From Dehalococcoidales bacterium (lineage in GTDB: Bacteria > Chloroflexota > Dehalococcoidia > Dehalococcoidales > RBG-16-60-22): a DNA stretch of 42,662 bases. The notes under the pieces were generated by a model. The model was not told where the DNA came from, did not search any database, and was given only the letters and a program-made list of their open reading frames with translations. Positions within the stretch are counted from its first letter, which is position 1; every line of letters starts with the position of its first letter. Below, piece after piece: positions 1-22,990 of the stretch. The stretch is from the NCBI GenBank assembly GCA_030606585.1, contig JAUWGD010000001.1, forward strand, positions 1 to 42,662, in the 5' to 3' direction. Made by a program: the position numbers and the translations under genes.

Positions 1-472
1 GTGCCTCAAAAGACATCCCTGCCGTAATAGCGCCATCACCGATAACCGCCACGACATGATAGTCGTCGCCGGAGAGGTCGCGGGCAATGACCATGCCCAG
101 GGCTGCGGAAATCGAAGTGCTGCCGTGGCCGGCACCGAAGGGGTCGTGCTCGCTTTCATCGCGGCAGGTATAGCCTGATAATCCGCCATACTGGCGCAGA
201 GAACCGAACTCGCACCTGCGTCCGGTAAGCAGTTTGTGGACGTAGCTCTGGTGGCCTACATCCCAGATAATTTTATCGCTGGGGCTGTTGAAGACACGAT
301 GGAGAGTAATGGTAAGTTCGACGACTCCCAGGTTGGAAGCCAGATGACCGCCAGTTTTGGTTACCGTGGTAATGATTTCACGTCTGAGCTCGGCAGCCAG
401 TTCTTCCAGCGTCGCCAGCGATAATCCTTTCAGGTCGGCGGGACTATCGATTTTATCCAGTATTTTCGGCAT
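1..472 (-). CDS. dxs: 1-deoxy-D-xylulose-5-phosphate synthase, N-terminal part (gene continues past the left edge)
   Basis: Absent from the ORF track because it is truncated. Manual minus-strand translation from ATG 472..470 gives [61 protein letters not shown]...[43 protein letters not shown]. This has the DXS-type GGHLxSNLG and GDG thiamine-diphosphate motifs. Confidence 0.85.
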
Positions 473-1254: not shown

Positions 1255-1331
1255 GTCCCTGTAGCTCAGTTGGATAGAGCGACTGCCTTCTAAGCAGTAG
1301 GTCGTGGGTTCGAGCCCCTCCAGGGACGCCA
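1255..1331 (+). tRNA. tRNA-Arg (anticodon TCT) with encoded CCA
   Basis: Manual cloverleaf: acceptor GTCCCTG/CAGGGAC, U8-A9, D arm GCTC-AGTTGGATA-GAGC, anticodon arm ACTGC-CTTCTAA-GCAGT (anticodon TCT), variable AGGTC, T arm GTGGG-TTCGAGC-CCCTC (one mismatch), discriminator G, CCA at 1329..1331. Confidence 0.9.
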
Positions 1332-1519
1332 TATCAGGCTCGGTTTGAGGCTAAAATTTTACTAAAAAAGAACCTTTCACTTCTAAAGGCCGGACAGCCC
1401 GTTATGCTTGTATATACTCTACAATTTTCTAGTTAACCTGACCTCATGTCATAAGACATGCTTCAGCGAGGGTTGTTTCTTGCTGAAACGGTAACTACTC
1501 TGTATTGATATCGTTCAAG

Positions 1520-2467
1520 TTACCAGTCCGGCGGGCCTACCTGTTTCTGTTTGTCATAAATGTCATTATAGATTATAGTCCCGAAATTCTTGACGATTTC
1601 CCAGCGCTTTTCATTCCGCGGCTCATCAGGGATAGCGCGGATAATAGCATTATGACGCGCGATATAGCCGTCCTTGAACTCAGGATGGGTGTGTATGAAG
1701 AGGTCATTATTCCTGATGCCCCGTACCACCCGCTCACCGGTCTCTATCGGGTCCATGATTACATCTTTCATGTCCATGAACGGCCGCCGGGGTGGAGCGC
1801 CTTTAGGGGGCGGAGGCATTTTTGGCGGCCAGGTTTCTCCCTCGTTCCTGAGATGGGCAGGCCGGTTCTCAAAAGAAGATTTACCCAGATTGGTCATCGT
1901 CGGCCCGGGAATCAGCACTGAAGCCCCGATATTCTTATCCTGAAGTTCCGTGGCGAGACATTCCATCATAGCGCATACAGCATATTTCGTCGTGCAGTAG
2001 ATAATAAATTTGTCTGCGGCAAGAAGGCCGCACGTCGAGGACGTGGCTACGATGTGGCCGCCCTCCCCGTGTTTCAGGATACGCGGTACAATCGTCATGA
2101 TGCTGTTAATGCAGCCTCCCACGTTGACGCCCATGCTGTAGTCCCAATCTTTATACGTCAATTTATCAATCGGGCCGCCGCCGGAGCCTACGCCGGCATT
2201 ACTGACCAGCACGTGTATCTTCCCGAAGACTTTTTCCGCTTCATCGGCGGCCTTAACATAAGCCTCTCGGTCGGTAACGTTCAGTTTTATCGGGTGGACA
2301 GGCTGTTTTTTTTCTTTAAAGTAGGCCATCGCCTCATCCAGGGCGTCCTGGCGCGAATCGGCGATAACCACCTTCATGCCGTATTTGGTACATGCCTTGG
2401 CAATTCCGAGTCCGATGCCGCTGGCGCCACCGGTGATAAAGGCTGTTTTTCCTTCCACATGTTCCAT
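1520..2467 (-). CDS. SDR-family NAD(P)-dependent oxidoreductase (module A)
   Basis: TGGASGIGLG Rossmann motif, NAG, and a YxxxK-type active-site region (YCTTKYAV). I start at the internal Met (MEHVEGKTAFITGG) because AGGAG lies 7 nt upstream and the longer track ORF overlaps the upstream gene. Paralog of 4410..5384. Confidence 0.85.
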   Translation of the reverse strand: MEHVEGKTAFITGGASGIGLGIAKACTKYGMKVVIADSRQDALDEAMAYFKEKKQPVHPIKLNVTDREAYVKAADEAEKVFGKIHVLVSNAGVGSGGGPIDKLTYKDWDYSMGVNVGGCINSIMTIVPRILKHGEGGHIVATSSTCGLLAADKFIIYCTTKYAVCAMMECLATELQDKNIGASVLIPGPTMTNLGKSSFENRPAHLRNEGETWPPKMPPPPKGAPPRRPFMDMKDVIMDPIETGERVVRGIRNNDLFIHTHPEFKDGYIARHNAIIRAIPDEPRNEKRWEIVKNFGTIIYNDIYDKQKQVGPPDW

Positions 2468-2510
2468 TTTTTCTACTCCTATTAACCACGCATTATTTAT
2501 TTGGTCGAGT

Positions 2511-4205
2511 CTAGTGGGAAATCCCGCAGGAACCGTCTTTGCAGACTTCTGCCACCGGCATCCGGAGCGGTTTTGCATCTTTCTTGATGCCGGCTTTAGG
2601 AATCCACGGGTCGATTACTGCCGTCTGGAAATAGGAAAAATCGGTAACAACCCACATCGGGTTCATTTCCCCGCCGGCGACGACGAAGTTCACCATCTCC
2701 GGGCGCTTGAAACGGAGATTCATCTCATTCACGAGCCACTCGCTGAGTTTCATGGGGTCATCGTAGCCTTCCTTCTTACAACTCTTGGCTACCAGCGGGT
2801 CGATGACGAACGTAAACGAGGCTCCGAAGGGACCGCTGATGCTTTTCACAACCTCCAGCATCCGCTGGATAGGGCCGGTGTTAAAGCCGAGGACAGTCCA
2901 ACCGCGGAAAAGACTGACCGTGCTCTCATCGCGTTTGAAACCCTTGCGCACGTGGAAGGGTTCCCAGACACTTAACTCCTCGTTTTCCGCGCAACACATG
3001 TTGTTGTAATTGATAGTGGTTCCGGTACTGGCCGTGAACGTGGCGCCGGGCCGGACATCCCCGAGGTTAATGCTCATCAGGGTCCAGGCACGGCCGATGA
3101 CGGAGTTGGCGTAATTGATCGGACTTAGGGCGCCGAGGCCGTAGTTCATGCCGATTTCGTCGCGGATGGGGCCGTTTACCACCATCATGCTCGCGAAAGA
3201 AGTCGTCGAACTGGGCATGGAAGGCCGTCCGGAAGCGCCTAATGCCAGGATAACCGGGAAATGCTCCGGTCTGGCGCCCGCCATGACGGCGTTCACCGCA
3301 ACCCTCTCCACTGTGTACTGGAGCCGTTCCTCGTGGGTAGTTACGGACATCATGCCGACGTATTCCTGGGGGCCGCGGTCGGTGCCGGTAAGCATCTCCG
3401 CCACGCGCTCTTCGGTCGGCAGGATGATGGGCAGGCCGTCCGTCCAGCCGCTTTCCAGGAAGAACCGGTGAAGGTCGGCCTCGGTGGCCGGTTCGAGCAG
3501 GCGCGGCCGCTCCGGTCTCTTCTCCGGTTTGTAATTCTTCTCGGTTTCCGTCAGCGGCTGGGTGAGGGCGAAGATAACCTCCTCCATGAGGGGTACGCCG
3601 GAAACAGGGTCGTTGCCCTCGATATAGCCATGCAACGTGTCCCGGGAAACCCAGCCGACAGGGTAAGGAGGAAAAGTCCAGCGGAGGTTCATGCCGTGAC
3701 TACGGCCGTCACGCTGCACGTAGTCCGTAAAACGGGCGGTGGCGATAGGGGCTGAAGGTACGCCATAGTCGTGTTCCATCGTCCGGGCAAACTCGGCGAT
3801 ACTCGCCGAACAGCCGTCTCAGCCGCCGACACCGAAGACAACGCCGTCACCATTTTCCTTGATTTCTTTCCAGAGTTCTGGCTCATCGGTGAACATGCTG
3901 GTCTTTTTATGGCGTAACTCGGTTTTGATAGCAGGTCGGTTTTGCGTGAACCAATCCTGAAGCTCCTCCATAAATTCCTTGCTGCCGGCAAATCCCGTAT
4001 TCACCAGGTAAACGGTCTTGCCTTCCAGGCTGTCAAGGCGCGGCGCCATTTTACGTTTCCCGAGGGCTTCAGCCGTGTCTCTCGGCTGGTTTTCGGGGTC
4101 GTGAATAGCGAACATTGGTGAATCAACGTTCAGCCGCCGTCCGAAGATACCGCTGGGCTGGCCTATGGGGTCCAGCACTGTGATTTTCGAATTATTTTTT
4201 GCCAT
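2511..4205 (-). CDS. predicted UxxC selenoprotein (about 564 aa): UGSC-like N-terminal domain fused through in-frame UGA (3821..3819) to a large conserved domain of unknown function
   Basis: Track ORFs 3819..4310(-) and 2511..3779(-) share a frame (42 nt from the UGA first base to the ATG first base). The 39 nt between them has no stop, and ATG 3779 has no RBS. The junction reads GVGG-U-DGCSASIAEFART-MEHDYGVP. A hairpin follows the UGA. The start is moved to ATG 4205 (AGGAG 7 nt upstream). The paralog 5429..7195 has TGA at the aligned position. Confidence 0.68.
3786..3815 (-). promoter_or_regulatory. SECIS-like hairpin downstream of UGA 3821..3819
   Basis: The mRNA reads UGA GAC GGCUGU-UCGGCGA-GUA-UCGCCGA-GUUUGCC. 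There is a perfect 7-bp GC-rich upper stem (3809..3803 / 3799..3793) with a small apical loop, extendable by two G-U pairs and GGC/GCC. It starts 3 nt after the UGA. Confidence 0.5.
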
Positions 4206-4409
4206 GTTTTTTCTCCTAACTGTTTTTACTATGGAAAAAAGATTGTTAAAGTTGATAGTTATCTTGCTCTTACGTGATATTCTATAGTACCTTATACAGT
4301 AAAAATCCACAACTGGAAGATATCGAGTCCATCTTTATGGAGTAATGTCAGAATTTGCATTAGATTGCCATTCATTTTACACTATTTATATAGTACGAAG
4401 GAGGGAATA

Positions 4410-5384
4410 ATGAAAGATTTCGCTGGTAAAATTTTATTTATCACCGGAGGGGCTTCCGGTGCCGGATTCGGTCAGGCAAAGGTGTTTTCAGAAGCAGGCT
4501 GCAAGGTTGTTATCGCGGATATTCGTCAGGACCACCTGGACGAGGCAATGGCGTATTTCCGGGATAAAAAGGCAGAAGTTCACGCGATACAACTGGATAT
4601 TACGGACCGCAAGGCATATGCGGCGGCTGCCGACGAGGTAGAGAAGGTATACGGGAGTCCGCCCCAGATGCTCTTTAATACTGCGGGCGTGAATGCCTTC
4701 GGTCCGGCTGAAGCCTCGACATTTGAAGATTATGACTGGGTTATGGGAGTTTGCCTTGGCGGCGTCGTCAACGGTATGGTGACATTCGTACCGCGCATGA
4801 TACAGGCCGATAAGGGCGGTTATATCGCCACGACTTCCTCGATGGGAGGTTTCATGGGAGGTTCCACGACCGCTCCCTACTCGGCTGCCAAAGCCGCGGT
4901 CAATAACCTCATGGAGAGTTACTTACAGGCGCTCAAGCCTTATGGTATCGGCGTATCCTGCCTGTGCCCGGGCGGTATCAAGTCAAATATCGCCGAAGCA
5001 TCATATACACGGCCAAAGCACCTGGAAAACACCGGGTATAACACCAATGAAAAAACAATCGAGTATATGCATTACCATTACTCTTTTGGGATAGACCCCG
5101 TCGAGCTGGCAAACATACTTAAGAAGGGGATTGAAAACGAGCAGTTCTTCATTATCCCGGTCCCTGACCCGGAAAAGATGCTGCAGGGTATTGTTGAGCG
5201 AATCGTTAATTATGCCACTCCCGAAGGGATGAAAAAACAGGAAGAGCTGATGAAGAAGCGCATGGAAGAAATGAGGAAACGCATGGGCGGTGATGATGGT
5301 CCCATGAAGGGCGCCGCCGAATCCGGATGGGGGAAAGCCAGGCAAGATTTAACCTGGATCAAAGAACGTAAGGGACCCTTTTAA
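4410..5384 (+). CDS. SDR-family NAD(P)-dependent oxidoreductase (module B)
   Basis: MKDFAGKILFITGGASGAGFG Rossmann motif and YSAAK active-site motif. GGAGG lies 6 nt upstream of ATG 4410. It shares DxRQDxLDEAMAYF(K/R)xKK with the module A SDR. Confidence 0.85.
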   Translation: MKDFAGKILFITGGASGAGFGQAKVFSEAGCKVVIADIRQDHLDEAMAYFRDKKAEVHAIQLDITDRKAYAAAADEVEKVYGSPPQMLFNTAGVNAFGPAEASTFEDYDWVMGVCLGGVVNGMVTFVPRMIQADKGGYIATTSSMGGFMGGSTTAPYSAAKAAVNNLMESYLQALKPYGIGVSCLCPGGIKSNIAEASYTRPKHLENTGYNTNEKTIEYMHYHYSFGIDPVELANILKKGIENEQFFIIPVPDPEKMLQGIVERIVNYATPEGMKKQEELMKKRMEEMRKRMGGDDGPMKGAAESGWGKARQDLTWIKERKGPF

Positions 5385-5428
5385 TCAAGGATGCAACTAA
5401 ACCCTGAACATTCGAATGGAGGAATATA

Positions 5429-7195
5429 ATGACAATTGAAGTACGTTTTTCAGTAATGAGTCCTGAAGCTGGAGTCCAGAAGAGTGCAGGTGGACCTCCG
5501 CCGGGTATGGGCGGGCCTCCACCGTCTTCAGCTTCTTTTGCCAAGCGGTTGGATACACTGGAGAACAAGACCGTGTACCTGGTGGATATCGGTTTCGGCG
5601 GAGGCTATGAATTCATGCTGCAATTGCAGAAATGGTTTGCCGATCACATGCCGTCCGTCACCACGATACCAAAACGGAAACCGGGTATGGTGTTCATGGA
5701 TGATAATAATGACCTCTGGGAGGAAATTAAAGTAAAAGGCCATGCCGTTGTCCTTGGCGTAGCCGGCTGACCGGGCTGTATTGCAGCGGTCGCTGCAGGT
5801 AGTACGAATCTTGAACAGAACTATGGTCTCCCGGTTGCTCCTGTCTCAGCATACACGATGGAAAGCGCTGCAAAGAGTAACCCGAGAGCCGCTTCTTTAC
5901 CTTTCATATATACGCCGTTTCCGGTGATAGGTTTGTCTCCTGAAGTCCTCGATAGTTATATTGTAGGCAATGACCCGGATACCGGTAAACCTGTCATCGA
6001 TGAGATATTTGACGTATTGACCAAACCGGTAAGCAAAAAGAAATCGCCGCCTGAGTCTCCTGTACCTGAAAAAGCCGCCCCTCCACAGGTACTCCTGGAA
6101 CCGGATACCGAAGATAATTTACAGCGTCTGTTTTATGAAAAAGGATGGACGGACGGACTGCCCATCATTCTACCCACCGAGGAACGGGTGCAGAAAATGC
6201 TCGCCGGCACCAGCGCTTCTCCGGACGAGATAGTCGCCGAATCATTCTCGTTTGCGACCAGAGAAGTTATTAAGTACACGGTTTCCAGCATCGCGGTTAT
6301 CGCGGTCATGGCCGGCGCCAGGCCGGAACATTTTCCGGTTATCCTGGCTGTTGCCTCTACCAGGCAATCGTCGCTTATGCCCTCAACAACAGCCTTCGGA
6401 ACAATGCTTCTGGTGAACGGGCCGATTCGTAATGAGATCGGTATGAACTGTGGTATCGGCGCGTTCAGTCCGGTGAATCTGGCGAATTCCGTTATCGGAA
6501 GAGCCTGGACATTGATGAGCATTTGCTGGGGGTATGCCAAGCCTAAAGAGACCCTGTGGAGTGCCCAGGGGAATAATTTTATTTACAATAATATGTGCGT
6601 CGGCGAGAACGAAGAGAGCAGCGTCTGGGAGCCTTTCCATGTGGGAAAAGGTTTCAAGTCTGACGAGAGTGTCGTCAGTATCTTCCGGGGATGGGGTTTT
6701 TTCAACAGTCCCGGAACCGCTGCCCACCGGTCGGTAATTGAGGAATTAAATATCCAGCTGGCGGCAATGCCCCCGATGAATTCCATGGCGACGATAATCA
6801 TGGACCCGCTGGTGGCCAGGAATCTAAAGGATAATGAAGGGTTTACAACCAAGCAGGACTTCTGCCGCGCGTTATCCGAGAACATCAAGATGCCGGCGGG
6901 ACAGTACTGGAAAACCGATCATATCGACATGCTGGTGGCATCCCAGGCATACAAGGGAGTGGAGCCTTATGCTTCCTGGAAAAAGCTCCCGGATGATGCG
7001 CTGATAGCTCCCTATCATAACCCGGACAATATCAATATCGTCGTCGTGGGCGGGGAGACAAGTCCCTTATGGAAAACTACGGACTACGGCTGCTCAGGCA
7101 GTGCATCTATCGACAAGTGGAGGGCGAATAAATCCGATGATGAATGCGCTGACGGAACGTGCGGGCTTCCGGATGAACCGGCTGATTATGATTAG
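5429..7195 (+). CDS. predicted UxxC selenoprotein (about 588 aa), paralog of 2511..4205; in-frame UGA at 5768..5770
   Basis: Track ORFs 5429..5770 and 5858..7195 are in the same frame (5858-5768=90). The intervening 87 nt has no stop, and ATG 5858 has no RBS. The junction reads GVAG-U-PGCIAAVAAGSTNLEQNYGLPVAPVSAYT-MESA. GGAGG precedes ATG 5429. Confidence 0.72.
5782..5797 (+). promoter_or_regulatory. SECIS-like hairpin 11 nt downstream of UGA 5768..5770
   Basis: UGCAGC-GGUC-GCUGCA forms a perfect 6-bp stem with a GGUC apical loop. The 11-nt spacing and the G/U-containing loop recall the minimal E. coli fdhF SECIS. Confidence 0.55.
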
Positions 7196-7201
7196 ATTCG
7201 T

Positions 7202-7226
7202 CACGACCTGATTATCGTGTTTTTGT
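7202..7226 (+). terminator. weak candidate intrinsic terminator after the module B selenoprotein gene
   Basis: CACGA-cctgatta-TCGTG followed by TTTTTGTTATT, 7 nt after the stop codon. The stem is only 5 bp. Confidence 0.3.
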
Positions 7227-7491
7227 TATTCAGCATCTATACATTGATAACTGGCAGTTATTGACGTACTCAGTAATGCATTCAGATTTCAGGGAATTTT
7301 ACAGTTTATGAGGCTAACTTAATCCGGAGATTTTAGCAAAATCCGCCGAAGCAGCTGGCCTTGAATTGTTATGTCAACTTACGAGCCGGCTTTAGGTTAC
7401 CACCTATCGTACAGTACCGCCTTACCGTGAAACACGGAATCGGCTCCGGCTCCGTAATATAGCCAATTTGAAAGTAATAATTCGTCGACTA

Positions 7492-8352
7492 TTAACTCTG
7501 ATTGATAACCAGTTCAGCAAAAGGTGTCGGGTAATATTTACCCTGGCTTACATACCTTATCCCTCTGATGAGGTCCGAGCTGGCAGCCTTTTTGGGAATG
7601 AAGCCGTAAGCCCCCGATTGCTTGGCGATAATCATATTCTCTTCTTCATCATACTGGGTTAAAACCAGAACCTTTGTCTCCGGGCATTCCTTGTGTATCA
7701 ATTTAGTCGCTTCTATACCGCTCATTACCGGCATGACTATGTCCACCAGGGCTACGTGCGGCAACAGGCGCAGCGCCTTATCAAACGCGTCCCGTCCATT
7801 GACTGCCTCGCCCACCACCTCCATATCCTTTTGCAGGGACACAACGGAACATATTCCGGTCCTGACCATCGTATGATCATCGACGACGAGTACTCGTATC
7901 TTTCTGGTAGCGGCTTCTAGCAAGCTCTGGATTCGGGGAATGAGAGAAGCTGGCTCGATGGGCTTAAATAAATACTCGTCACCGTCTACCTGTAACCCTT
8001 CGAATCTTCTCCACCCCCTGATTGGCCGTTCCTCATACCGGGCATCGACGACAAGCAACGGTATATCCTTGTATCTCGGATGCTCTCCCAGCCATTTATA
8101 CATGGCAAATGCCTGTCCAGCCGGCGCCATTGTACCCAGAATAATTAGAGCCGGTTCGGCTTTAATAACCTCCTGTGCCTGTGCTTTGTTCGATGCTGTC
8201 ACAACACGGTAGGCTTTAGCTTCCAGAGTTCGCCGACAGGCTTCTACGAAATTGGGTTCGTCATCAATGATGAGGATTCTTTCCTTCTTCTTACGTTTAC
8301 TTTCTCTTTTTGTACTGGATTTATCCGTCCTTTTTCGATTATCGGTATTCAT
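7492..8352 (-). CDS. tandem-receiver (REC-REC) response regulator without an output domain
   Basis: Two CheY-like domains. REC1 (ILIIDDEP...LIILGTMAPAG...LFKPI) has Gly where the phospho-acceptor Asp is expected. REC2 (VLVVDDH...LVDIVMPVMSG...LTQ...IPKK) is a complete NarL-type receiver, but the protein ends without a LuxR HTH. The start is moved to the Met preceded by GGGGAGGAG. Confidence 0.75.
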   Translation of the reverse strand: MNTDNRKRTDKSSTKRESKRKKKERILIIDDEPNFVEACRRTLEAKAYRVVTASNKAQAQEVIKAEPALIILGTMAPAGQAFAMYKWLGEHPRYKDIPLLVVDARYEERPIRGWRRFEGLQVDGDEYLFKPIEPASLIPRIQSLLEAATRKIRVLVVDDHTMVRTGICSVVSLQKDMEVVGEAVNGRDAFDKALRLLPHVALVDIVMPVMSGIEATKLIHKECPETKVLVLTQYDEEENMIIAKQSGAYGFIPKKAASSDLIRGIRYVSQGKYYPTPFAELVINQS

Positions 8353-8421
8353 TTTATTCTCCTCCCCTGCCGTGAATTTGGCCATTCGGGTCGCCTGAGA
8401 ATAGAAGTCATTAAAGGCAGC

Positions 8422-9324
8422 CTAGCGGGACGAACTAACAAGTTCGGCAGCCTCTAAAATATCAGGCACGATATTTTCATTGCCTACCGCCATGATATGC
8501 ACGCCGTGACACAGCTTTTCTTCCCTGATGGTTTTGATGAATCTGGCGGCAATCTCAATGCCTTTCTGAAGTCCCTTCCCCTTTTCCACAGCCGCCAGCT
8601 CATCAATAAGAGATTGGGCAACAATTATACCGGGGACGTTATTATTCATGTACCTGGCCATGCCGGCAGATGAGAGGACAATGATACCGGCCAGGATTTT
8701 AACGTCGAATTGAGATGCATATTGCATAAACCGACGAAAGCTTGCCAGGTCGAATATGCCCTGGGTCTGAAAAAATTGTGCCCCGGCAGCGACCTTCTTA
8801 TCGAATTTTATGAGTTGCGGCTCGATGAAGTCTGCTTCTGGATGGACGGAGGTGCCGATGCAAAATTTCGGGGCAGCCCCTAATTCGTTACCTCCCATGT
8901 CGATTCCGGATTCCAGGGTTCTTATCATCTTTAATAATTGCACGGAATCCAGGTCAAAAACAGGCTTGGCATCTTTGTGGTCGCCTACATCAATCGAATC
9001 CCCCGTAAGAGAAAGTACATTCTTAATATCTCTGGAATAAGCCAGAAGAAGCTCGGACTGCAGCGCCAGACGGTTTCGGTCACGACAAGTCATTTGCAGG
9101 ATTGGCTCACCACCAAGTTCTCTCACCAGCAGGCAGCCCCCTATCGAAGGAAAACGCATCACAGAACTTTGATGGTCCGTGATGTTTATGGCGTCAACCT
9201 TATCCTTGAGTAGCTTGATATGGTGAACCACTTCCGAGACGTCCACACTCTTGGGAGGTCCTATCTCTGTCGTTATAATAAAGTCATTTGAGCTGAGTTT
9301 CTCTTCAAATAATGAATTAGCCAT
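8422..9324 (-). CDS. metF: methylenetetrahydrofolate reductase, acetogen/MetF type
   Basis: About 300 aa. The ...ITTEIGPPK...AINITD...MTCRDRNR...LSLTGD motif pattern is typical of MTHFR. It overlaps the upstream metV-like gene by 8 nt. Confidence 0.85.
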   Translation of the reverse strand: MANSLFEEKLSSNDFIITTEIGPPKSVDVSEVVHHIKLLKDKVDAINITDHQSSVMRFPSIGGCLLVRELGGEPILQMTCRDRNRLALQSELLLAYSRDIKNVLSLTGDSIDVGDHKDAKPVFDLDSVQLLKMIRTLESGIDMGGNELGAAPKFCIGTSVHPEADFIEPQLIKFDKKVAAGAQFFQTQGIFDLASFRRFMQYASQFDVKILAGIIVLSSAGMARYMNNNVPGIIVAQSLIDELAAVEKGKGLQKGIEIAARFIKTIREEKLCHGVHIMAVGNENIVPDILEAAELVSSSR

Positions 9325-10000
9325 TGCTTTCTCCCGTAACAGTCTCTGCTTTACTCATAATCCTTCTCGGCCTGGGAATCGCCCGGAAATTCCGGGGAGG
9401 GTAATACCGGCGCATCTTATCCAGCTGCTGTAGTCTTTCCAAACGCTGATAAATTAAAATCCAGGCGCAGTCCATATCTTTATTGGCCTCGCATTTTCCG
9501 TTCTTGACGCCGGCACAGGGGCCATTGAGTATGCCTTTGGTGCACCTTGTAATAGGACAGATGCCGCCGGTGTCTTCCAATCGGCACTCACCGCAGGCGG
9601 CGCAACGTTCATCCCAGACTCCTGACTCTTTGGTCATGCCCATGAAAGAGGTATTCACACCCGGCAACACCGGCATATCCGGGAGATATTCCGCTATAGC
9701 CTGCACCCCGATGCCGCAACCGAGAGACAGAATTACGTCCACGTCAGCCGTTTTTTCGCCAAGCGCCTCCAGGAATTCAGGGTCACACTGCCTTTTCACA
9801 GTATGTTCGGAAAAGGTATGAGCCCCTTCTCCGCTCCTCGCCTGTGCCAGCTGTAACGCATTATGGAGAAAGGAGACCTCACGCTCGCCGCCGGCATCGC
9901 AAACCGTCATGCAGGTGCCACAACCGAGTATTAATACCCGTTCATAAGGGACAATCATTCGTATGATATCTTCCAGAGGTTTTTGTTCCGCGACTATCAA
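9317..10000 (-). CDS. metV: MTHFR C-terminal-domain FeS/zinc protein (MetV-like)
   Basis: Cys-rich, with CGTC...CAACGEC...CPITRCTKGILNGPCAGVKNGKCE (the NGPC(G/A)G signature of the MTHFR_C family). It overlaps its neighbours at both ends. Confidence 0.75.
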   Translation of the reverse strand: MIVAEQKPLEDIIRMIVPYERVLILGCGTCMTVCDAGGEREVSFLHNALQLAQARSGEGAHTFSEHTVKRQCDPEFLEALGEKTADVDVILSLGCGIGVQAIAEYLPDMPVLPGVNTSFMGMTKESGVWDERCAACGECRLEDTGGICPITRCTKGILNGPCAGVKNGKCEANKDMDCAWILIYQRLERLQQLDKMRRYYPPRNFRAIPRPRRIMSKAETVTGESNG

Positions 10001-12105
10001 CTTTTCACCTCCCCCTTTATTACTGAGGCTAAACGGAGAGAACCTATCTGTTCGACGAACTTGTCCAGTTCCTCGACAGGGTCTTCCGTGGTGGTGCCGA
10101 GGGCGAAAACCTGGAGTCGTTCGGGCTCGAGACCGATTGACCCCAGTACCTTTCTAACCTTCGCCACGCGTTGTTGTACCCAGTAGGTGGTATTTTCCCG
10201 GGCACATTGTTCGCCGCAACCGGCGATGAAGACTCCTTCGGCACCTGTCTCAAAGGCGGATAGTATGTGAGATGCCTCTACCTTGGCTACGCAGAGAACC
10301 GGTACGATACTGACGCCCGCCCCGGCTCCCCTCCATAGATCGGCCAGAGTGCCGGTACCGAAGAGTCCGTACTGGCAGCAGAAACCAATGATAAGCGGCT
10401 TGTTTTTCAGTTCGGCAGCCGATTTTATAGCGTGACTAAGCTCATCATTCACCTGGCGTCGGTCGAACGGCTTTCTTAAGACTATCGCCTTGGCAGGGCA
10501 CTCGGCCACGCATATACCGCAAGCCTGGCACTGGTCAGCAGGTATGCAGATGGCACCGCTGGCGTCCAGATGAGGCACGTGATAAGGACATACTCTCAGG
10601 CAGGTAAGGCAGGTGGCACACTTATCTTGAAACAGGATTTCCACACCAACGCCGCACCGCAGACACCTTCGGGCTTCATTGATAGCCTGTTCCCAGCTAT
10701 ATACGAGTTCTATCGGCTCGAAGTCTCTTGCCCTGACTTCGCTTGCCAGACTCGGCGGCTCAGCTCGCTCTATCTTCTTTATCATCTCTATTGTTTCCGG
10801 CAAAAGGTCTCCGCTTAACTTTTCCTTAGCCTCTTTGACGGGCAGTGGGTACCGGTGCTGGAGGTAATCAACGATGCGGAGCGCCGCGAGTCTGCCGGCC
10901 GCTAACGCCTCGGTTACCGTAGCCGGTCCGGTAACGGCGTCACCCCCGGCAAAAACCCCGGCTCTGTTGGTGGTAAGTGTATTCGGGTCGACCTGAATCG
11001 TGCTACCCTTGCCAATGCGGACCCCAAAATCGTCGGGGGTCTGAGGCGCCTGTCCAATAGCTGCGATGAGGGTATCAATTTGCTCGCTGAATTTGCTGCC
11101 CTTGACCGGCACGGGCCTCTGCCGGCCACTCTCGTCAGGCTTACCGAGCTTCATTTTAATGCAGGTTACATTCAACCTCTTGTTTTCTCTCTTGACCTTG
11201 GTGGGTGTTACCAGGTACCTTATGTCTATTCCTTCTTCCAGTGCTTGCTCAATCTCTGCGGGGTCGGCAGGCATCTCCGCGCGGGTACGGCGGTAAAGGA
11301 TGCTTACCTTTTTTACGCCCAGACGGATTGCCGTACGCGCCGCATCAATGGCTACATTACCCCCTCCCACCACGGCCACCTTTCTTCCCAGCGATGGCTT
11401 CAATCCGAGGTTAACCTCGCGGAGAAAGGTGGCTCCGTCTATTACCCCGGGACTTTCCTCTCCCTCTATCCCCATTCTGAGGCTTTGATGGGCACCGATA
11501 GTAATAAAAATAGCCTTATAGCCCAGCTCAAACAGCAGGTCCAGGGATACTACCCGGGTATCCGTCCTGATTTCAACGCCCATGCGTGTTAATCTCTTGA
11601 CCTCAATATCCAAGACTTCGCGCGGGAGCCGGTACTGGGGAATGCCGACGCGGAGCATACCTCCCAGTTCCGAGTGAGCTTCGAGGACCGTTACAGGATA
11701 GCCGAATTTTTTCAGGTAGTAAGCACAGGCTAAGCCGGCCGGCCCAGAGCCTACGATGGCAACCTTCTCTGCATGCGTGGTTTCGGCTTCAGCCTGGACC
11801 ATCCTGTCGCCGCCGAATTCCACGGCGAACCTCTTCAGCGAACGGATGGCGATGGGTTTATCTACCTGGGAACGCCGGCAGGCATCTTCACAGGGATGAG
11901 TGCAAACGTAGGCGCAGATAGATGGGAACGGATTGCCCGTCCTGATGACCTGTAAAGCCTCCATAATCCTGCCCTGAGAAACCAGACCTACGTATTCTCT
12001 GATATCCATATGCAGGGGGCAGGCATCCTGGCAGGGAGGTACCAGGCTATGGTCCGGAACGTTCTCCGTGCGATTTACAGGGTAGCTCGTATTAGCAACA
12101 TTCAT
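9997..12105 (-). CDS. NfnB/GltD-like FAD/NAD(P) flavoprotein fused to a 2x[4Fe-4S] ferredoxin domain and an MvhD domain
   Basis: N-terminal Cys-rich GltD-type domain (PPCQDACP...CTHPCEDAC), a VAIVGSGPAGLACAYYL dinucleotide fold and a second GGGNVAIDAART fold. These are followed by CLRCG...CLTCLRVCP and CQACGICVAECP, then the MvhD-like segment IIGFCCQYG...VPVLCVAKV...VFIAGCGEQC. Confidence 0.8.
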   Translation of the reverse strand: MNVANTSYPVNRTENVPDHSLVPPCQDACPLHMDIREYVGLVSQGRIMEALQVIRTGNPFPSICAYVCTHPCEDACRRSQVDKPIAIRSLKRFAVEFGGDRMVQAEAETTHAEKVAIVGSGPAGLACAYYLKKFGYPVTVLEAHSELGGMLRVGIPQYRLPREVLDIEVKRLTRMGVEIRTDTRVVSLDLLFELGYKAIFITIGAHQSLRMGIEGEESPGVIDGATFLREVNLGLKPSLGRKVAVVGGGNVAIDAARTAIRLGVKKVSILYRRTRAEMPADPAEIEQALEEGIDIRYLVTPTKVKRENKRLNVTCIKMKLGKPDESGRQRPVPVKGSKFSEQIDTLIAAIGQAPQTPDDFGVRIGKGSTIQVDPNTLTTNRAGVFAGGDAVTGPATVTEALAAGRLAALRIVDYLQHRYPLPVKEAKEKLSGDLLPETIEMIKKIERAEPPSLASEVRARDFEPIELVYSWEQAINEARRCLRCGVGVEILFQDKCATCLTCLRVCPYHVPHLDASGAICIPADQCQACGICVAECPAKAIVLRKPFDRRQVNDELSHAIKSAAELKNKPLIIGFCCQYGLFGTGTLADLWRGAGAGVSIVPVLCVAKVEASHILSAFETGAEGVFIAGCGEQCARENTTYWVQQRVAKVRKVLGSIGLEPERLQVFALGTTTEDPVEELDKFVEQIGSLRLASVIKGEVKS

Positions 12106-12320: not shown

Positions 12321-12974
12321 TTATATCGTTATAATTCGCTTGCGAATGGCATATTTAATAAGGTCGGTCCGGCTGTGTATGTTCAGTTTCTTCATCAGGC
12401 TGTTTTTATACCACTCCACCGTCTTGGGGCTGACGATAAGTATACCGGCGATTTCCCGGCTGGTATGTCCTTCCGCAACGAGTTTAAGCACTTCCCTTTC
12501 CCGGTCAGTTAGCTGCTGATACGGGTCCTGTTCCCCTTCCGATGGTATTTTCTGCTGGTATTCCTCAACAAGAGCCGTGGCGGCTGTAGAAGACAGGTAG
12601 GACTCCCCGTTGTAGGCTGCCTCAATGGCTGCAGCAAGTTCTGAAAATGCCGACATCTTGGTAACAAAGCCGCTGGCACCCGCTTCTATGATAGGGATAA
12701 CATATTCGCTATCGTCATACTGTGTCAGTGCCAGCACTTTAATCGCCGGGAATTCTTTTCGCAGGCGGCGCGTGGCTTCCAAACCGCCCATAACCGGCAT
12801 GGCCAGGTCCATGAGTACCACGTCGGGCATGAGATGCCGTACCTTTCCCAGGGCTTCTTTTCCGTCTGATGCCTCGCCGACCACTTCGATATCTTCAACA
12901 AGCGCCAGCAGGGAACTGATTCCGGCCCTGACGAGTGTATGGTCGTCGACTATCAGCACCTTAATTTTCTTCAT
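12321..12974 (-). CDS. NarL/LuxR-family response regulator (REC + HTH)
   Basis: KVLIVDDH...VLMDLAMPVMGG...LTQY receiver, followed by LTDREREVLKLVAEGHTSREIA...SPKTVEWYK, a LuxR-type HTH. Confidence 0.9.
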   Translation of the reverse strand: MKKIKVLIVDDHTLVRAGISSLLALVEDIEVVGEASDGKEALGKVRHLMPDVVLMDLAMPVMGGLEATRRLRKEFPAIKVLALTQYDDSEYVIPIIEAGASGFVTKMSAFSELAAAIEAAYNGESYLSSTAATALVEEYQQKIPSEGEQDPYQQLTDREREVLKLVAEGHTSREIAGILIVSPKTVEWYKNSLMKKLNIHSRTDLIKYAIRKRIITI

Positions 12975-12977
12975 GTG

Positions 12978-14597: not shown

Positions 14598-14675
14598 TGT
14601 CTACACCCTATATGAATAAAAGTACAGCGAGAATCTTGTGTTGTCAAGATGGGACGAGTATAACTTTATGGCTAA

Positions 14676-15797
14676 TTATACCGTTAGCTCCACAGTAATA
14701 CTAGTCCCTTTATCGGGTTGAGATTGTACCGTTAGTGTGCCGCCTGCCAGCTGGGCACGTTCCTGCATCCCTGTTAAGCCAAGTTTGCCGTTCTTGGCCA
14801 GGTCGCCTATCTTCTCGGGAAGGCGAAAGCCCTTGCCATTATCGGTGATGGTTATTCTTGCCTTGTCCTTGTCGAACTCAACTGTCATTTCAGCTTTGGT
14901 AGCACCGGAGTGTCGCCATACGTTTCTCAGGGCTTCCTGAGTTATGCGGAAGAGAGCTATTGCCGTTTCTTCCGAGAGGCGGCGTTCTTCACCTATGACC
15001 TTGACCTCGGCTTCTATTGCCGAGTGTTCGGTCATGTTAGAGGCCAGCCACTCCAGCGCCGGCAGCAGTCCCAAACGATCCAGCGCTGCCGGTCGCAGGT
15101 CCTGACTCAAACGGCGAACCCCCCGCAGGATGTTATCAGTCTGCTGCCATAACTCTTCCAGGCGGAGCCGGTTCTCTTCGGACAGTCCTTTTTCACCGGA
15201 AGCGAGAGAGTCCAACTGGCGGGAAAGCACCACCAGAGCCTGAATAGTATCATCGTGCAGCTCATGGGAGATACGCTTTCTTTCTTCTTCCTGGGCTCGG
15301 GTGGCCTGCTGTAAATAATAGCGAAGGTTTTGTTGCATCGCACTTAGTTCTTCAGCAATCTTTTGCTGCTCCCGCCGGGCTACTTCCATCTGTGTGCGGT
15401 ATTCTCGCTCTTTTCGTAGTGATGCGAAACTAATGGCTAATACGTTGCCAATGACAAAAACGGCGCTGGTTTCAAAAAGGGCGTCCAGCGGATGTGGCGA
15501 GATAAAGATGGCCCGGGGTAACATGGCGGCGAGAGCGGCCAGTGAAGTGATTAAGGCCCCCCTCCAGCCAAACAGGAAACCTGCCCACACTATCGGTGCC
15601 AGACAGAGGATTCTTTCAAAGGCATGTCTATCCAAGTTAAGATTATTGGTCAGCTGGCTGAGTAAAGCCGGGTACGCCAGAGCTTCCTCATAGTGGGCCA
15701 GCGTAATAAGCGCGAGTATGGCTAGAATAAACCAGAATCCCGGCCTTCGAAGGACACTCGTCAGCCAGTTTATTACTGAATATCGAGTTGCTGCCAT
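14676..15797 (-). CDS. membrane sensor histidine kinase (about 4 TM + HisKA_3 + HATPase)
   Basis: Hydrophobic N-terminal 140 aa, H-box ERKRISHELHDDTIQ, and an ATPase domain with DNGKGF...GLTGMQERA. Confidence 0.85.
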   Translation of the reverse strand: MAATRYSVINWLTSVLRRPGFWFILAILALITLAHYEEALAYPALLSQLTNNLNLDRHAFERILCLAPIVWAGFLFGWRGALITSLAALAAMLPRAIFISPHPLDALFETSAVFVIGNVLAISFASLRKEREYRTQMEVARREQQKIAEELSAMQQNLRYYLQQATRAQEEERKRISHELHDDTIQALVVLSRQLDSLASGEKGLSEENRLRLEELWQQTDNILRGVRRLSQDLRPAALDRLGLLPALEWLASNMTEHSAIEAEVKVIGEERRLSEETAIALFRITQEALRNVWRHSGATKAEMTVEFDKDKARITITDNGKGFRLPEKIGDLAKNGKLGLTGMQERAQLAGGTLTVQSQPDKGTSITVELTV

Positions 15798-15824
15798 ACT
15801 TTATATTTTCCCGGTGCCTAATTA

Positions 15825-16490: not shown

Positions 16491-16590
16491 ATGATATACG
16501 CCTTTTCACCCGGGTATTATTACATTAATCATACACCCTGACGATTAAGTACTCAATCGTTATAATTACCTAATACACAATCCACGCATG

Positions 16591-16606
16591 TAGGTATTAA
16601 TACCTA
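16591..16606. promoter_or_regulatory. perfect 16-bp palindrome TAGGTATTAATACCTA made of NarL-like heptamers; candidate response-regulator operator
   Basis: It lies in the divergent region between the RR gene (start 16490) and the microprotein operon (start 16701). TACCTAT fits the NarL heptamer TACYYMT. A further TACCTAC lies at 16650..16656, next to a TATACT -10-like hexamer (16664..16669). Confidence 0.4.
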
Positions 16607-22971: not shown

Positions 22972-22990
22972 GATTCATTAACCCCCTTTC

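What the first reader, a model, noticed from the sequence alone, without database searches (positions are those of the whole stretch)
1520..7195. Paired, divergently transcribed SDR + UxxC-selenoprotein modules with a conserved C-terminal CxDG(S/T)CG motif: a candidate uncharacterised redox system
The two modules face away from a shared AT-rich 204-bp region (4206..4409). Gene order differs between them: module A is selenoprotein then SDR, and module B is SDR then selenoprotein. So this is not a simple inverted duplication. Both selenoproteins share an identical GWTDGLPIILPTEERV block and AVMAGARPEHFPVILA. Both end with a Cys pair in the same context (CKDGSCG and CADGTCG), which could act as a resolving or relay dithiol for the N-terminal UxxC centre. 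An NAD(P)-dependent dehydrogenase coupled to a selenol/thiol redox protein recalls substrate-reductase logic such as the Grd/Prd-type systems. However, I recognise none of those families here. The block lies directly beside tRNA-Arg.
Basis: inference. Interest (0 to 1): 0.75.

Follow-up and report, generated by a model that had tools for sequence, protein, structure and literature searches.

The report
Paired UGSC selenoprotein plus dehydrogenase modules
Two adjacent gene pairs each encode a selenium-containing, two-domain protein of the catalogued but functionally unexplained 'UGSC' family next to a short-chain dehydrogenase; the pairing is real and conserved in close relatives, but the family is not new and its chemistry is still unknown.

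Summary
Window 1520..7195 holds two diverged modules (42% identity for both the selenoproteins and the SDRs). Each module pairs an NAD-type SDR with a ~570-aa protein read through an in-frame UGA (GVGG-U-DGC and GVAG-U-PGC).

Selenocysteine is strongly supported. All 81 homologous genes interrupted at this column use TGA. Cys forms align exactly. A GGUC/GUA-loop hairpin with compensatory changes follows the UGA.

The ~330-aa C-terminal domain has no Pfam, NCBIfam or PDB relative, by sequence, profile or fold.

SDR linkage is near-universal in close relatives (27/30 and 7/8 loci, with pairs kept intact through at least four rearrangements). It disappears below ~70% identity. More distant members instead sit beside thioredoxin-reductase-like, Hdr-like, nitroreductase or FMN-reductase genes.

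The CxDGxCG tail is confined to the A and B clades. It is conserved in A (114/119) and dispensable in B (26/48).

Best reading: a selenol/thiol-dependent reductase of unknown substrate, with the SDR acting on the substrate. This is a divergent variant of a known, uncharacterised family. Interest is moderate.

The parts
1520..2467 (-). SDR-A: classical short-chain dehydrogenase (315 aa) directly downstream of selenoprotein A
   Evidence: Pfam adh_short scores 154 bits. The best NCBIfam hit is PRK06194 at 198 bits, below its cutoff of 308. The sequence shows TGGASGIG, NAG, S...YxxxK, and Asp at the end of beta-2 (VVIAD). An SDR-A-like gene lies directly downstream of A-type genes in 7/8 assessable close loci.
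2511..4205 (-). Selenoprotein A (564 codons, read through the UGA): UGSC-like domain, uncharacterised C-domain and Cys-pair tail
   Evidence: Translation. It is 42% identical to protein B. The Cys-form full-length homologue P0091 is 60% identical.
3633..4085 (-). UGSC domain of protein A (residues 41-191)
   Evidence: PF24696 scores 69.8 bits against a gathering score of 25. NF041046 scores 44.6 bits, below its cutoff of 125.
3819..3821 (-). Sec codon (UGA) of protein A, in GVGG-U-DGC
   Evidence: It aligns with Cys in P0091 (GVAGCDGC) and with TGA in all interrupted homologues.
3792..3810 (-). SECIS-like hairpin A (UUCGGCGA-GUA-UCGCCGAG), starting 11 nt after the UGA
   Evidence: Folding. The same hairpin is kept, with compensatory changes, in A-type orthologues; for example GCGGCCA-GUG-UGGCCGC in L008.
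2604..3500 (-). Uncharacterised C-terminal domain of protein A (about residues 236-534). Motifs: GWTDGLPIxPPTEERV, AVMAGA, VNGPI, ANxxIGRA, AENEE, VVGG
   Evidence: No Pfam or NCBIfam hit. No PDB relative by sequence or profile. The AF2 model has pLDDT 92.3, and the best Foldseek match in the PDB has E=0.036 and probability 0.35.
2523..2543 (-). C-terminal CKDGSCG motif of protein A
   Evidence: The motif is kept in 114/119 A-type cluster representatives, and the distal Cys in 118/119. The corresponding tail has low confidence in the models: the last blocks average 66, 64 and 41 in the window A model, and 84, 61 and 43 in the P0091 model.
4206..4409 (.). Shared divergent intergenic region, 204 bp, 30.9% GC
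   Evidence: A promoter-like site TTGCCA-18-TATAGT lies at 4365..4394 (+), upstream of SDR-B.
4410..5384 (+). SDR-B: classical short-chain dehydrogenase (324 aa) directly upstream of selenoprotein B
   Evidence: Pfam adh_short scores 139 bits. An SDR-B-like gene lies directly upstream on the same strand in 27/30 assessable B-type loci at >=72% identity.
5429..7195 (+). Selenoprotein B (588 codons, read through the UGA)
   Evidence: Translation. UGSC scores 32.6 bits over residues 35-174. A terminator-like hairpin lies at 7202..7219.
5768..5770 (+). Sec codon (UGA) of protein B, in GVAG-U-PGC
5781..5798 (+). SECIS-like hairpin B (UUGCAGC-GGUC-GCUGCAG)
   Evidence: In the 48-sequence alignment A5 this 7-bp helix is paired in 81.5% of cells against 65.6+-1.6 in shuffles (0/500). 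All 7 pairs show changes on both sides. G28 and U29 of the loop are invariant.
6092..7120 (+). Uncharacterised C-terminal domain of protein B
   Evidence: Alignment with protein A and the family.
7145..7165 (+). C-terminal CADGTCG motif of protein B
   Evidence: The motif is present in only 26/48 close B-type orthologues.

Best explanation
Each large gene encodes a cytoplasmic two-domain selenoenzyme.

Domain roles:
- The N-terminal alpha/beta UGSC-type domain carries a redox-active Sec-x-x-Cys pair. The pair sits at the junction between a beta-strand and the N-terminus of a helix.
- The ~330-aa C-terminal domain has no characterised relative. Its conserved residues are polar rather than Cys (D/T/E of GWTDG..PTEE, N of NGP, R of IGRA, E-N-E), so it most likely binds the substrate.

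Proposed cycle (inferred):
- The selenolate attacks or reduces a small-molecule substrate held by the C-domain.
- The neighbouring Cys resolves the intermediate into a selenenylsulfide.
- The selenenylsulfide is re-reduced from outside.

Electron supply (inferred):
- Across most of the family, the reductant appears to be a dedicated NAD(P)H- or flavin-linked partner encoded next door: thioredoxin-reductase-like, Hdr-like, nitroreductase or FMN reductase.
- In the A and B clades found here, a flexible C-terminal C-x4-C-G tail probably shuttles the disulfide to a general thiol reductant. Known flexible Cys-bearing tails work this way in ribonucleotide reductase R1, PAPS reductase and MsrA.

Role of the SDRs (inferred):
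- The adjacent NAD-type SDRs are not the electron donors.
- They act on the same substrate or its product as an alcohol/ketone step before or after the selenium-dependent step.

The two modules are ancient paralogues for two related substrates or isomers.

Shown: selenocysteine coding, domain identity, the conserved pairing, and the distribution of the tail and of the partner genes. Inferred: the catalytic cycle, the tail relay and the role of the SDRs.
For: Sec coding:
- All 81 distinct homologous genes interrupted at this column use TGA, never TAA or TAG, in the context G-x-G-x-U-x-x-C.
- Twelve of the 13 mapped uninterrupted homologues carry Cys at that column, 11 as GHCSTC and one as GHCAGC; the 13th has no Cys there.
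- The downstream hairpin carries a GGUC, GUA or GUC loop. It shows covariation of 0.442 against 0.164 in shuffles (0/500) and <=0.13 when the partners are slid.
- The hairpin is more stable in Sec forms than in non-Sec forms encoding nearly the same peptide (-11.5 vs -7.4 kcal/mol, p=5e-4).

Redox-domain identity:
- PF24696 UGSC matches above its gathering score.
- In the model of P0091, the CxxC follows strand 153-157 and starts helix 162-179.

Reductase partners:
- TrxR-like genes with CA(S/T)C motifs occur in 14 loci, 10 of them within 300 nt of the gene (median gap 22 nt). They score 262-308 bits on TIGR01292, below the cutoff of 343.
- An HdrA/FlpD/CCG cluster surrounds P0091.
- A nitroreductase (L002) and an FMN reductase (L015) are adjacent in other loci.

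SDR coupling:
- 27/30 and 7/8 close loci carry the SDR. The pairs remain intact through at least four different arrangements of the two modules.
- PRK06194-like SDRs also lie next to A-type genes in Bacillota (L004) and Acidobacteriaceae (L009), and next to a B-type gene in Thermodesulfobacteriota (L017).

Tail:
- 114/119 A-type orthologue representatives keep it.
- It has low model confidence, consistent with flexibility.

Small-molecule substrate (hint only): SBP_bac_5 ABC transporter genes are adjacent in several loci.
Against: - No invariant Cys exists in the C-domain.
- About two thirds of the uninterrupted full-length cluster representatives I aligned (about 19 of 30) have lost both redox residues; examples are MDTL, SSST and TVTS. 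The C-domain therefore can function, or at least persist, without the redox pair.
- The B-type tail is missing in about half of close orthologues. A relay through it cannot be essential for B.
- SDR linkage vanishes beyond ~70% identity.
- No thioredoxin or TrxR gene lies in the window block.
- The difference in TrxR adjacency between tail-bearing and tail-less loci (0 of about 11 vs about 13 of about 75) is not statistically convincing. I did not run a test.
- I could not read model coordinates, so the proximity of Sec to the conserved C-domain residues is untested.
- No substrate is identified.
Confidence: 0.5

Rival explanations
1. The C-terminal domain is a non-redox enzyme or binding module, such as a hydrolase, isomerase or lyase. 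The UxxC pair is only a regulatory or protective redox switch, or a vestige, and is not part of catalysis.
For: - Many full-length homologues lack both redox residues while keeping every C-domain motif.
- The conserved C-domain residues are D, T, E, N and R rather than Cys.
- The redox-less member P0122 sits between two glycyl-radical enzymes and their activase.
- Proteins of ~710 aa match the C-domain in two stretches and show no Pfam domain at all, UGSC included.
Against: - In the genome-based sample, about 80 of about 95 genes keep Sec and another 12 of the 13 mapped uninterrupted genes keep Cys. Maintaining costly Sec with a SECIS implies the residue is functionally central.
- Dedicated TrxR-like or Hdr-like neighbours argue for stoichiometric electron flow rather than occasional switching.
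Confidence: 0.2
2. The protein is a dedicated redox carrier or disulfide relay, a large thioredoxin-like shuttle. It passes electrons between Hdr-like or TrxR-like reductases and other enzymes, and the C-domain serves only as a docking scaffold.
For: - P0091 is embedded in an HdrA/FlpD/CCG cluster beside a DUF1573 protein, another reported selenoprotein family (PMC13188914).
- TrxR-like neighbours are common.
- A and B paralogues are adjacent in distant phyla even without SDRs.
Against: - A 330-aa, highly conserved domain with invariant polar residues and a confident globular model is unusual for a mere docking module.
- The tandem paralogue expansions (L004, L010, L084) look like substrate diversification.
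Confidence: 0.15
3. The protein handles or detoxifies a metal or metalloid (Hg, As, Se, Te or organometals). Ligands would be passed between the Sec/Cys pair and a C-terminal Cys pair, by analogy with MerA.
For: Only the arrangement of a Sec-Cys pair plus a flexible Cys pair. Other recently recognised selenoproteins act in organometallic chemistry (bioRxiv 10.1101/2022.07.06.499078, abstract only).
Against: - No mer, ars or other metal-resistance genes were seen in any neighbourhood examined.
- The tail is absent from most of the family.
Confidence: 0.05
4. The in-frame TGAs are true stops, so these are split genes or pseudogenes and no selenoprotein is made.
For: Gene callers in public databases split the genes. 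Most hits are 422-aa 'hypothetical proteins'. No Sec machinery is encoded in this window.
Against: - TGA is used exclusively at one aligned column, in at least 10 major bacterial lineages by record title.
- Cys is the alternative residue at that column.
- The covarying SECIS hairpin is absent from non-Sec forms.
- The reading frame and its conservation continue across the TGA.
- Dehalococcoidia are reported to be selenoprotein-rich (PMC13326102).
Confidence: 0.01

Closest known systems
UGSC-containing selenoprotein family (Pfam PF24696; NCBIfam NF041046; Zhang & Gladyshev, PMC1976440 and PMC2398784)
   Same: - The N-terminal domain matches PF24696 above its gathering score.
- The UxxC motif is in the same place.
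- Sec forms far outnumber Cys forms, as reported for GOS (255 Sec vs 21 Cys).
- Function is unknown in both cases.
- The 2008 paper mentions a 'UGSC/Unknown_1' fusion.
- NCBI names a 560-aa Cys homologue (WP_358488424.1) 'UGSC family (seleno)protein'.
   Different: - Both window proteins score far below the NF041046 cutoff (44.6 and 25.9 bits vs 125).
- The motifs are UDGC and UPGC, not UGSC.
- They carry a C-x4-C-G tail and a conserved SDR partner, neither of which I found described in the papers I read.
- I could not verify that 'Unknown_1' is this C-domain, because the figure is held only as an image.
Glycine / D-proline reductase selenoprotein B (GrdB/PrdB, PF07355) with the thioredoxin system
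   Same: It works alike in outline. A UxxC selenoprotein is combined with a substrate-specific part. Electrons come from NAD(P)H through a thioredoxin-reductase-type flavoprotein encoded nearby; TrxR-like genes lie next to 14 family loci.
   Different: - No PF07355 match, even at E<=10.
- No pyruvoyl proprotein (GrdE/PrdA), GrdA or GrdC/D partner was seen in the neighbourhoods examined.
- The C-domain is unrelated to any Grd/Prd component found in Pfam or the PDB.
- The partner here is an SDR.
Flexible C-terminal cysteine tails: class Ia ribonucleotide reductase R1 (C-x4-C), PAPS reductase (ECGLH), MsrA. Recalled from established knowledge, not tested here.
   Same: A Cys pair with C-x4-C spacing, ending in CG(I/L), lies on a low-confidence (flexible) C-terminal extension of a thiol/selenol-dependent protein. 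In those enzymes the tail carries the disulfide to thioredoxin or glutaredoxin.
   Different: There is no sequence or fold relationship. The tail is clade-specific and is lost in half of the close B-type orthologues. The relay function is an inference only.
SDR plus thiol-dependent cleavage pathways (LigD/LigF/LigG beta-etherase pathway; R-/S-hydroxypropyl-CoM dehydrogenases with 2-ketopropyl-CoM oxidoreductase). Recalled from established knowledge.
   Same: The logic fits. An NAD-dependent SDR makes or removes a keto group next to the bond that a thiol or dithiol enzyme then cleaves reductively. In the CoM pathway two paralogous SDRs serve two enantiomers, which would explain the two modules here.
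   Different: There is no homology between the selenoproteins and GSTs or DSOR flavoproteins. No substrate is known. This is an analogy offered as a testable idea.

Membership tests
Selenoprotein (bacterial Sec decoding) | In-frame UGA aligned with Cys in homologues, with the reading frame conserved on both sides | tested here: met
   TGA is the only interrupting codon in 81 distinct genes. Twelve of the 13 mapped uninterrupted homologues have Cys at that column, such as GHCSTC aligning with GHUSTC.
Selenoprotein (bacterial Sec decoding) | SECIS stem-loop a short, fixed distance 3' of the UGA, with G/U in the apical loop | tested here: met
   The loop lies at +20..+24 and reads GGUC, GUA or GUC. 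All 7 pairs of the 7-bp helix covary. Non-Sec forms lack the hairpin. The single-sequence energy z-scores of the two window hairpins are not significant on their own (-0.5 and -0.35).
Selenoprotein (bacterial Sec decoding) | selA, selB, selC and selD present in the genome | not testable with these tools
   None are in the 42.6-kb window. The only tRNA is tRNA-Arg, and the ORFs scanned showed no Sec genes. The rest of the genome is not available.
UGSC family (Pfam PF24696) | HMM match above the gathering score (25 bits) | tested here: met
   Protein A scores 69.8 bits and protein B 32.6 bits. 54 of 67 aligned relatives also match.
UGSC family equivalog (NCBIfam NF041046) | Score at or above the curated cutoff of 125 bits | tested here: not met
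   44.6 and 25.9 bits. The five other long homologues tested also fall below the cutoff, at 40.6-85.7 bits.
UGSC family | Literal U-G-S-C motif | tested here: not met
   The motifs here are UDGC and UPGC. Relatives show USTC, UGGC, UWGC and UHGC. UxxC spacing is kept in all but a few paralogues.
Thioredoxin fold (proposed for UGSC in PMC2398784) | Trx-like beta-alpha-beta topology with CxxC at a helix N-terminus | tested here: inconclusive
   CxxC does sit at a strand-to-helix junction. However, all of the weak Foldseek hits to the N-domain are flavodoxin- or Rossmann-like alpha/beta domains, and none is a thioredoxin. I could not inspect the coordinates.
Glycine/proline reductase protein B (GRDB, PF07355) | Match to PF07355 | tested here: not met
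   No hit at E<=0.01, 0.1 or 10.
Glycine/proline reductase system | Pyruvoyl proprotein (GrdE/PrdA) and GrdA/GrdCD partners in the operon | tested here: not met
   The block's only partners are two SDRs. The scanned window ORFs and neighbouring loci showed none of these.
Classical short-chain dehydrogenase/reductase | adh_short match, TGxxxGxG, NAG, and the Ser-Tyr-Lys catalytic residues | tested here: met
   154 and 139 bits against a cutoff of 26.6. The motifs can be read directly. No NCBIfam equivalog cutoff is reached; the best is PRK06194 at 198 and 188 bits against 308.
Any solved-structure family for the C-domain | Significant sequence, profile or fold match in the PDB | tested here: not met
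   phmmer best E=0.055, to an unrelated lipase segment. Profile searches gave nothing. The best Foldseek E-values were 0.0042 (N-domain only) and 0.036 (C-domain, probability 0.35, TM<=0.33), from models with pLDDT 89 and 92.

The most novel reading that the evidence does not exclude
The two modules form a previously unrecognised selenium-dependent substrate-reductase system. It would share the logic of Grd/Prd but be built from unrelated parts.
- An NAD-dependent SDR installs or removes a keto group next to a C-X bond of an imported small molecule.
- The new-fold C-domain binds that intermediate.
- Sec-x-x-Cys cleaves the bond reductively.
- The C-x4-C tail relays electrons from thioredoxin.
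- The A and B modules serve two stereoisomers or two sequential steps, possibly as an A/B hetero-complex.
Probability: 0.15. Interest if true: 0.85.

Novelty: new variant of a known kind. Interest (0 to 1): 0.55.

Why it matters
UGSC-type proteins have been listed among the most abundant selenoproteins in aquatic metagenomes since 2005-2008, and they still have no assigned function.

This analysis shows four things:
- The long, two-domain form is widespread.
- It is overwhelmingly Sec-encoded, and therefore systematically split into two 'hypothetical' ORFs in databases.
- Its large domain has no solved structural analogue.
- It has recurring partners: an SDR in the Dehalococcoidia-type clade, and TrxR-like or Hdr-like reductases elsewhere.

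These partners turn 'what does UGSC do?' into a testable problem. They define co-expression constructs and candidate electron donors. They also point to organisms that carry Cys forms and have a genome record not labelled as a MAG, such as Pseudonocardia sp. NPDC046786 and Rhodobacterales HKCCE4037.

For annotation, the result gives a clear rule for joining the two ORFs across the UGA.

Tried and rejected
- **Sequence and profile searches of the C-domain against the PDB**: only chance-level hits.
- **Foldseek of two confident AF2 models against the PDB**: nothing at E<=1e-3. I rejected the weak class I fumarase and 'Toblerone-fold' amidohydrolase hits (probability <=0.35, rmsd 11-18 A) as unreliable.
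- **Pfam on all 67 aligned relatives, on the isolated domains at E<=10, and on longer (~710-1226 aa) architectures**: only UGSC appeared, plus one Cu-amine-oxidase N-terminal domain. There was no informative fusion partner.
- **Grd/Prd membership**: rejected. There is no PF07355 match and no pyruvoyl partner.
- **Checking whether 'Unknown_1' of Zhang & Gladyshev 2008 is this domain**: the figure is an image, and the stored sequence supplements are truncated and contain none of the motifs. This remains unresolved.
- **The search for related loci with the 70-sequence alignment** failed for lack of a conserved stretch. The 32-sequence alignment worked.
- **A strict one-to-one pairing of SDR type with selenoprotein type**: rejected. 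SDR-B-like genes flank A-type genes in L004 and L009.
- **'The L001 B orthologue has lost its tail'**: rejected. The tail is intact in the +1 frame after a one-base insertion.
- **Tail presence versus TrxR-neighbour absence**: the trend is there, but the numbers are too small to claim it.
- **Single-sequence folding energies of the two window SECIS hairpins** are not significant. The SECIS evidence is comparative.

Full report
**1. What is there**

ORF listing and frame-1 translations confirm the anatomy.

- Minus strand: a 564-codon reading frame runs 4205->2511, interrupted once by TGA (3821..3819, ...GVGG-U-DGCSAS...). After a 43-nt gap comes an SDR at 2467->1520.
- Plus strand: an SDR lies at 4410..5384. 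After a 44-nt gap comes a 588-codon frame at 5429..7195, interrupted once by TGA (5768..5770, ...GVAG-U-PGCIAA...).
- All four genes have ATG starts and Shine-Dalgarno-like sequences, read.
- The 204-bp divergent spacer is 30.9% GC. It holds a 10/12 sigma-70-like match upstream of SDR-B. A terminator-like hairpin follows selB.
- The two large proteins are 42% identical (E=9e-145), and so are the SDRs (E=6e-61).
- tRNA-Arg(TCT) is at 1255..1331.

**2. They are selenoproteins**

A scan of species-representative genomes returned 80 loci from many phyla.

- Every one of the 81 distinct homologous genes interrupted at this alignment column is interrupted by TGA, never TAA or TAG. The context is G-x-G-(G/H/L/T)-U-x-x-C.
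- Twelve of the 13 mapped uninterrupted homologues have Cys there (GHCSTC vs GHUSTC). The closest full-length Cys form, P0091, reads GVAGCDGC.
- Immediately 3' of the UGA, every Sec gene has a hairpin whose apical loop lies at +20..+24 and reads GGUC (most clades), GUA/GUG/GUC (A-type) or GUC (an acidobacterial group). The hairpins fall into three different registers.
- For the 48 GGUC-register sequences, the 7-bp helix is paired in 81.5% of cells against 65.6+-1.6 in shuffles (0/500). All seven pairs show double-sided changes. Covariation is 0.442 against 0.164 in shuffles and <=0.13 in slid controls.
- Non-Sec genes encoding nearly the same peptide lack the hairpin (mean -7.4 vs -11.5 kcal/mol, p=5e-4; shuffle z 0.03 vs -1.5).
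- The two window hairpins are not significant by single-sequence energy. The case for a SECIS is comparative.
- No Sec machinery is in the window, so that criterion is untested.

**3. What the domains are**

- Residues 41-191 of protein A and 35-174 of protein B match Pfam PF24696 'UGSC family' (69.8 and 32.6 bits, gathering score 25).
- Both fall well below the NCBIfam equivalog NF041046 cutoff (44.6 and 25.9 bits vs 125).
- UGSC-containing proteins are a published selenoprotein family of unknown function. They are abundant in GOS metagenomes (255 Sec vs 21 Cys sequences). The same paper notes a 'UGSC/Unknown_1' fusion (PMC2398784; also PMC1976440 and PMC13188914).
- NCBI names a 560-aa Cys homologue from Pseudonocardia 'UGSC family (seleno)protein'.
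- The remaining ~330-aa domain carries the motifs GWTDGLPIxPPTEERV, TVEKVAxNAVMAGA, VNGPI...G.GALGP.N.AN..IGRA, AENEE.SPW and VVGG.
- This domain has no Pfam or NCBIfam model and no PDB relative by phmmer or profile.
- Two confident AF2 models were made: P0091 full length (pLDDT 89, pTM 0.88) and the window's own C-terminal ORF (pLDDT 92.3, pTM 0.90). Neither gives a Foldseek hit at E<=1e-3.
- The weak hits of the full-length model are flavodoxin- or Rossmann-like alpha/beta domains of ~130-140 columns. By their fold and length I attribute them to the N-domain; the output does not give the query range. The CxxC sits between strand 153-157 and helix 162-179.
- In the alignments, no Cys of the C-domain is invariant.

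**4. How big and how varied the family is**

- More than 5,755 proteins match at E<=1e-3 among the 8,000 candidates scored. The closest are 422-aa 'hypothetical proteins' of Dehalococcoidales, which are the downstream halves of split Sec genes.
- Among 50%-identity representatives, 3,969 match at E<=1e-3 and 290 at E<=1e-30.
- Recognisable subtypes are: GGUDGC (window A), AGUPGC (window B), GHUSTC, GLUSTC, GTUPGC, AGUWGC, and some UxxA paralogues.
- Among uninterrupted cluster representatives, about 19 of 30 have lost both redox residues.
- Tandem paralogues are common.

**5. The C-terminal Cys pair**

- It is confined to the A and B clades. Every GHUSTC, GLUSTC and Cys-form member in the loci ends at ...SIDxWR or a close variant, with no Cys-bearing tail.
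- In A-type orthologues it is under clear constraint. 114/119 keep C-x-[DNE][GD]-x-C-G, and the distal Cys is kept in 118/119. In metagenome loci the count is 10/10.
- In B-type orthologues at >=72% identity only 26/48 have it. L011 and L015 truly lack it. L001 carries it in the +1 frame after a one-base insertion.
- The tail is the least confident part of the models.

**6. Neighbourhoods**

Family-wide, PRK06194-like SDRs adjoin the gene in only about 8 of 80 genome loci. In the clade of the window the link is tight:

- SDR-B-like genes lie directly upstream, on the same strand, in 27/30 assessable B-type loci at >=72% identity. The figures are 1/12 at 60-72% and 0/7 below 60%.
- SDR-A-like genes lie directly downstream of A-type genes in 7/8 loci (also L083 and L084).

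The two pairs co-localise in at least 19 loci, in at least four arrangements:

- divergent, as in the window;
- all four genes in tandem (sdrB-selB-selA-sdrA);
- convergent;
- selA-sdrA-sdrB-selB.

Each pair stays intact in these arrangements. L001 matches the window only across 1402..7284. This is good evidence that each pair is a functional unit and that the two pairs belong together.

- Related SDRs also flank A-type genes in Bacillota (L004) and Acidobacteriaceae (L009, with four in the SDR-A/B family within ~2.2 kb and a fifth, weaker SDR hit ~5 kb away), and a B-type gene in Thermodesulfobacteriota (L017). The SDR subtype does not track the selenoprotein subtype.
- A- and B-type paralogues are adjacent in distant lineages without any SDR.

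Elsewhere the recurrent neighbours are reductases:

- TrxR-like flavoproteins with CA(S/T)C occur in 14 loci, 10 of them within 300 nt of the gene (median gap 22 nt; 262-308 bits on TIGR01292, below cutoff).
- An HdrA/FlpD/CCG cluster surrounds P0091.
- A nitroreductase and an FMN reductase are adjacent in other loci.

SBP_bac_5 ABC transporters recur. A Pfam-less ~190-aa protein is present in 7 loci, within 300 nt of the gene in most. The redox-less member P0122 lies between two glycyl-radical enzymes.

**7. Mechanism**

What is shown: a Sec-x-x-Cys pair on an alpha/beta domain, fused to a conserved domain of unknown fold; reductase genes next door across the family; and SDR genes next door in this clade.

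What is inferred:

- The protein is a selenol/thiol-dependent reductase.
- Its C-domain binds a small-molecule substrate.
- The selenenylsulfide is recycled by a dedicated TrxR-like or Hdr-like partner. In the A/B clades it is recycled through the flexible C-x4-C-G tail, by analogy with RNR R1, PAPS reductase and MsrA (established knowledge, not tested here).
- The SDRs have intact catalytic residues and an Asp at the end of beta-2. In classical SDRs that Asp indicates NAD rather than NADP (established knowledge). They most plausibly act on the substrate or product, not on the disulfide.

The main counter-evidence is the existence of redox-less family members and the dispensability of the B tail. 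I put about 0.5 on the general redox-enzyme reading and much less on its details.

**8. Comparison, novelty and score**

- The proteins are members of the Pfam UGSC family. They are not members of the NCBIfam equivalog, and not Grd/Prd proteins.
- They work 'like' Grd/Prd only in outline.
- The finding is a divergent variant of a known but uncharacterised family. The clade has a conserved SDR partner and a Cys-pair tail, neither of which I found described in the papers I read.
- The residual interest lies in three things: a very widespread, Sec-dominated, mis-annotated enzyme; a structurally unrepresented domain; and partner genes that now make function testable.

**9. Limits**

- I used a crude ORF caller for the loci. 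Shadow ORFs were filtered, but not perfectly.
- Contigs are short, so many loci were not assessable.
- I had no access to model coordinates.
- No AFDB fold search and no multimer prediction were available.
- The window's taxonomic origin is inferred only from its closest relative, the Dehalococcoidales MAG L001, at 80-85% nucleotide identity.

Noticed in passing
window 8422..12105 (-): MetF (MTHFR), a MetV-like protein (MTHFR C-terminal domain) and an HdrA-type flavoprotein fused to an MvhD/FlpD domain lie in a row, 1.2 kb from the block and separated from it by a response regulator. The Cys homologue P0091 lies inside an HdrA/FlpD/CCG cluster, so a link to Hdr-type electron supply may be worth testing.
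   Followed up: partly
window 26119..27504 (-): A reductive dehalogenase homologue (Dehalogenase plus 4Fe-4S domains). Nearby are NrfD/Fer4_11 genes (17414..20276) and FAD_binding_4 and CCG-domain genes (21502..25775). This is consistent with a Dehalococcoidia-like host.
   Followed up: no
window 12321..16490 (-) and 7492..8385 (-): A cluster of two LuxR-type response regulators and two HisKA_3 histidine kinases (one with PAS and GAF domains). A separate double-receiver response regulator lies directly beside selB. I did not examine whether any of them controls the block.
   Followed up: no
window 40983..42278 (-) and 41001..42000: GC drops to 0.37 at the 3' end of the window. The 431-aa ORF there has no Pfam hit at E<=1e-6, although it follows leuA/leuB/leuD-like genes.
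   Followed up: no
L006 3418..4860, 5202..6641, 15324..16778: Three paralogues in one Chloroflexia MAG have Sec but no resolving Cys (GVAW-U-SNAV, GVAW-U-SGAV, GVCW-U-TGAV). They carry their own hairpin type. This would be a different redox chemistry, or a single-selenol mechanism.
   Followed up: no
L001 ~150..330 (-); also L102 and L151: The B-type orthologue ends 'RANKSR*' because of an extra C. The tail ECSDGTCGLPDEPADYD remains intact in the +1 frame. Two metagenome contigs show the same ending. It could therefore be a real recent frameshift rather than an assembly error.
   Followed up: partly
L082 (locus of P0122): A family member lacking both redox residues (GHMDTL), together with a second paralogue, lies between two glycyl-radical enzymes, a radical-SAM activase, a nitroreductase and an amino-acid permease.
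   Followed up: no
P0178, P0193, P0205, P0209, P0265 (~710 aa): These homologues have no Pfam domain at all and match the C-domain in two stretches. They may be UGSC-less tandem duplications of the unknown domain.
   Followed up: no
L024, L032, L033, L042, L053, L058, L069: A family of proteins, mostly ~190 aa in the clean ORF calls, without any Pfam match and (for the one member tested) any NCBIfam match, is present in 7 loci. It lies within 300 nt of the selenoprotein gene in most of them (median gap 68 nt).
   Followed up: partly
L081 7804..8547: A DUF1573 protein lies immediately downstream of the Cys-form homologue P0091. DUF1573 is itself listed as a selenoprotein family in PMC13188914.
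   Followed up: no
P0200, P0229, P0091, P0130, P0160, P0162, P0171 (alignment A1): Several family members carry N-terminal hydrophobic or twin-arginine-like leaders, for example SRRSFFRDLAITGAG and RRRFLQAGLTLPAAG. Part of the family may therefore be exported. The window proteins have no such leader.
   Followed up: no
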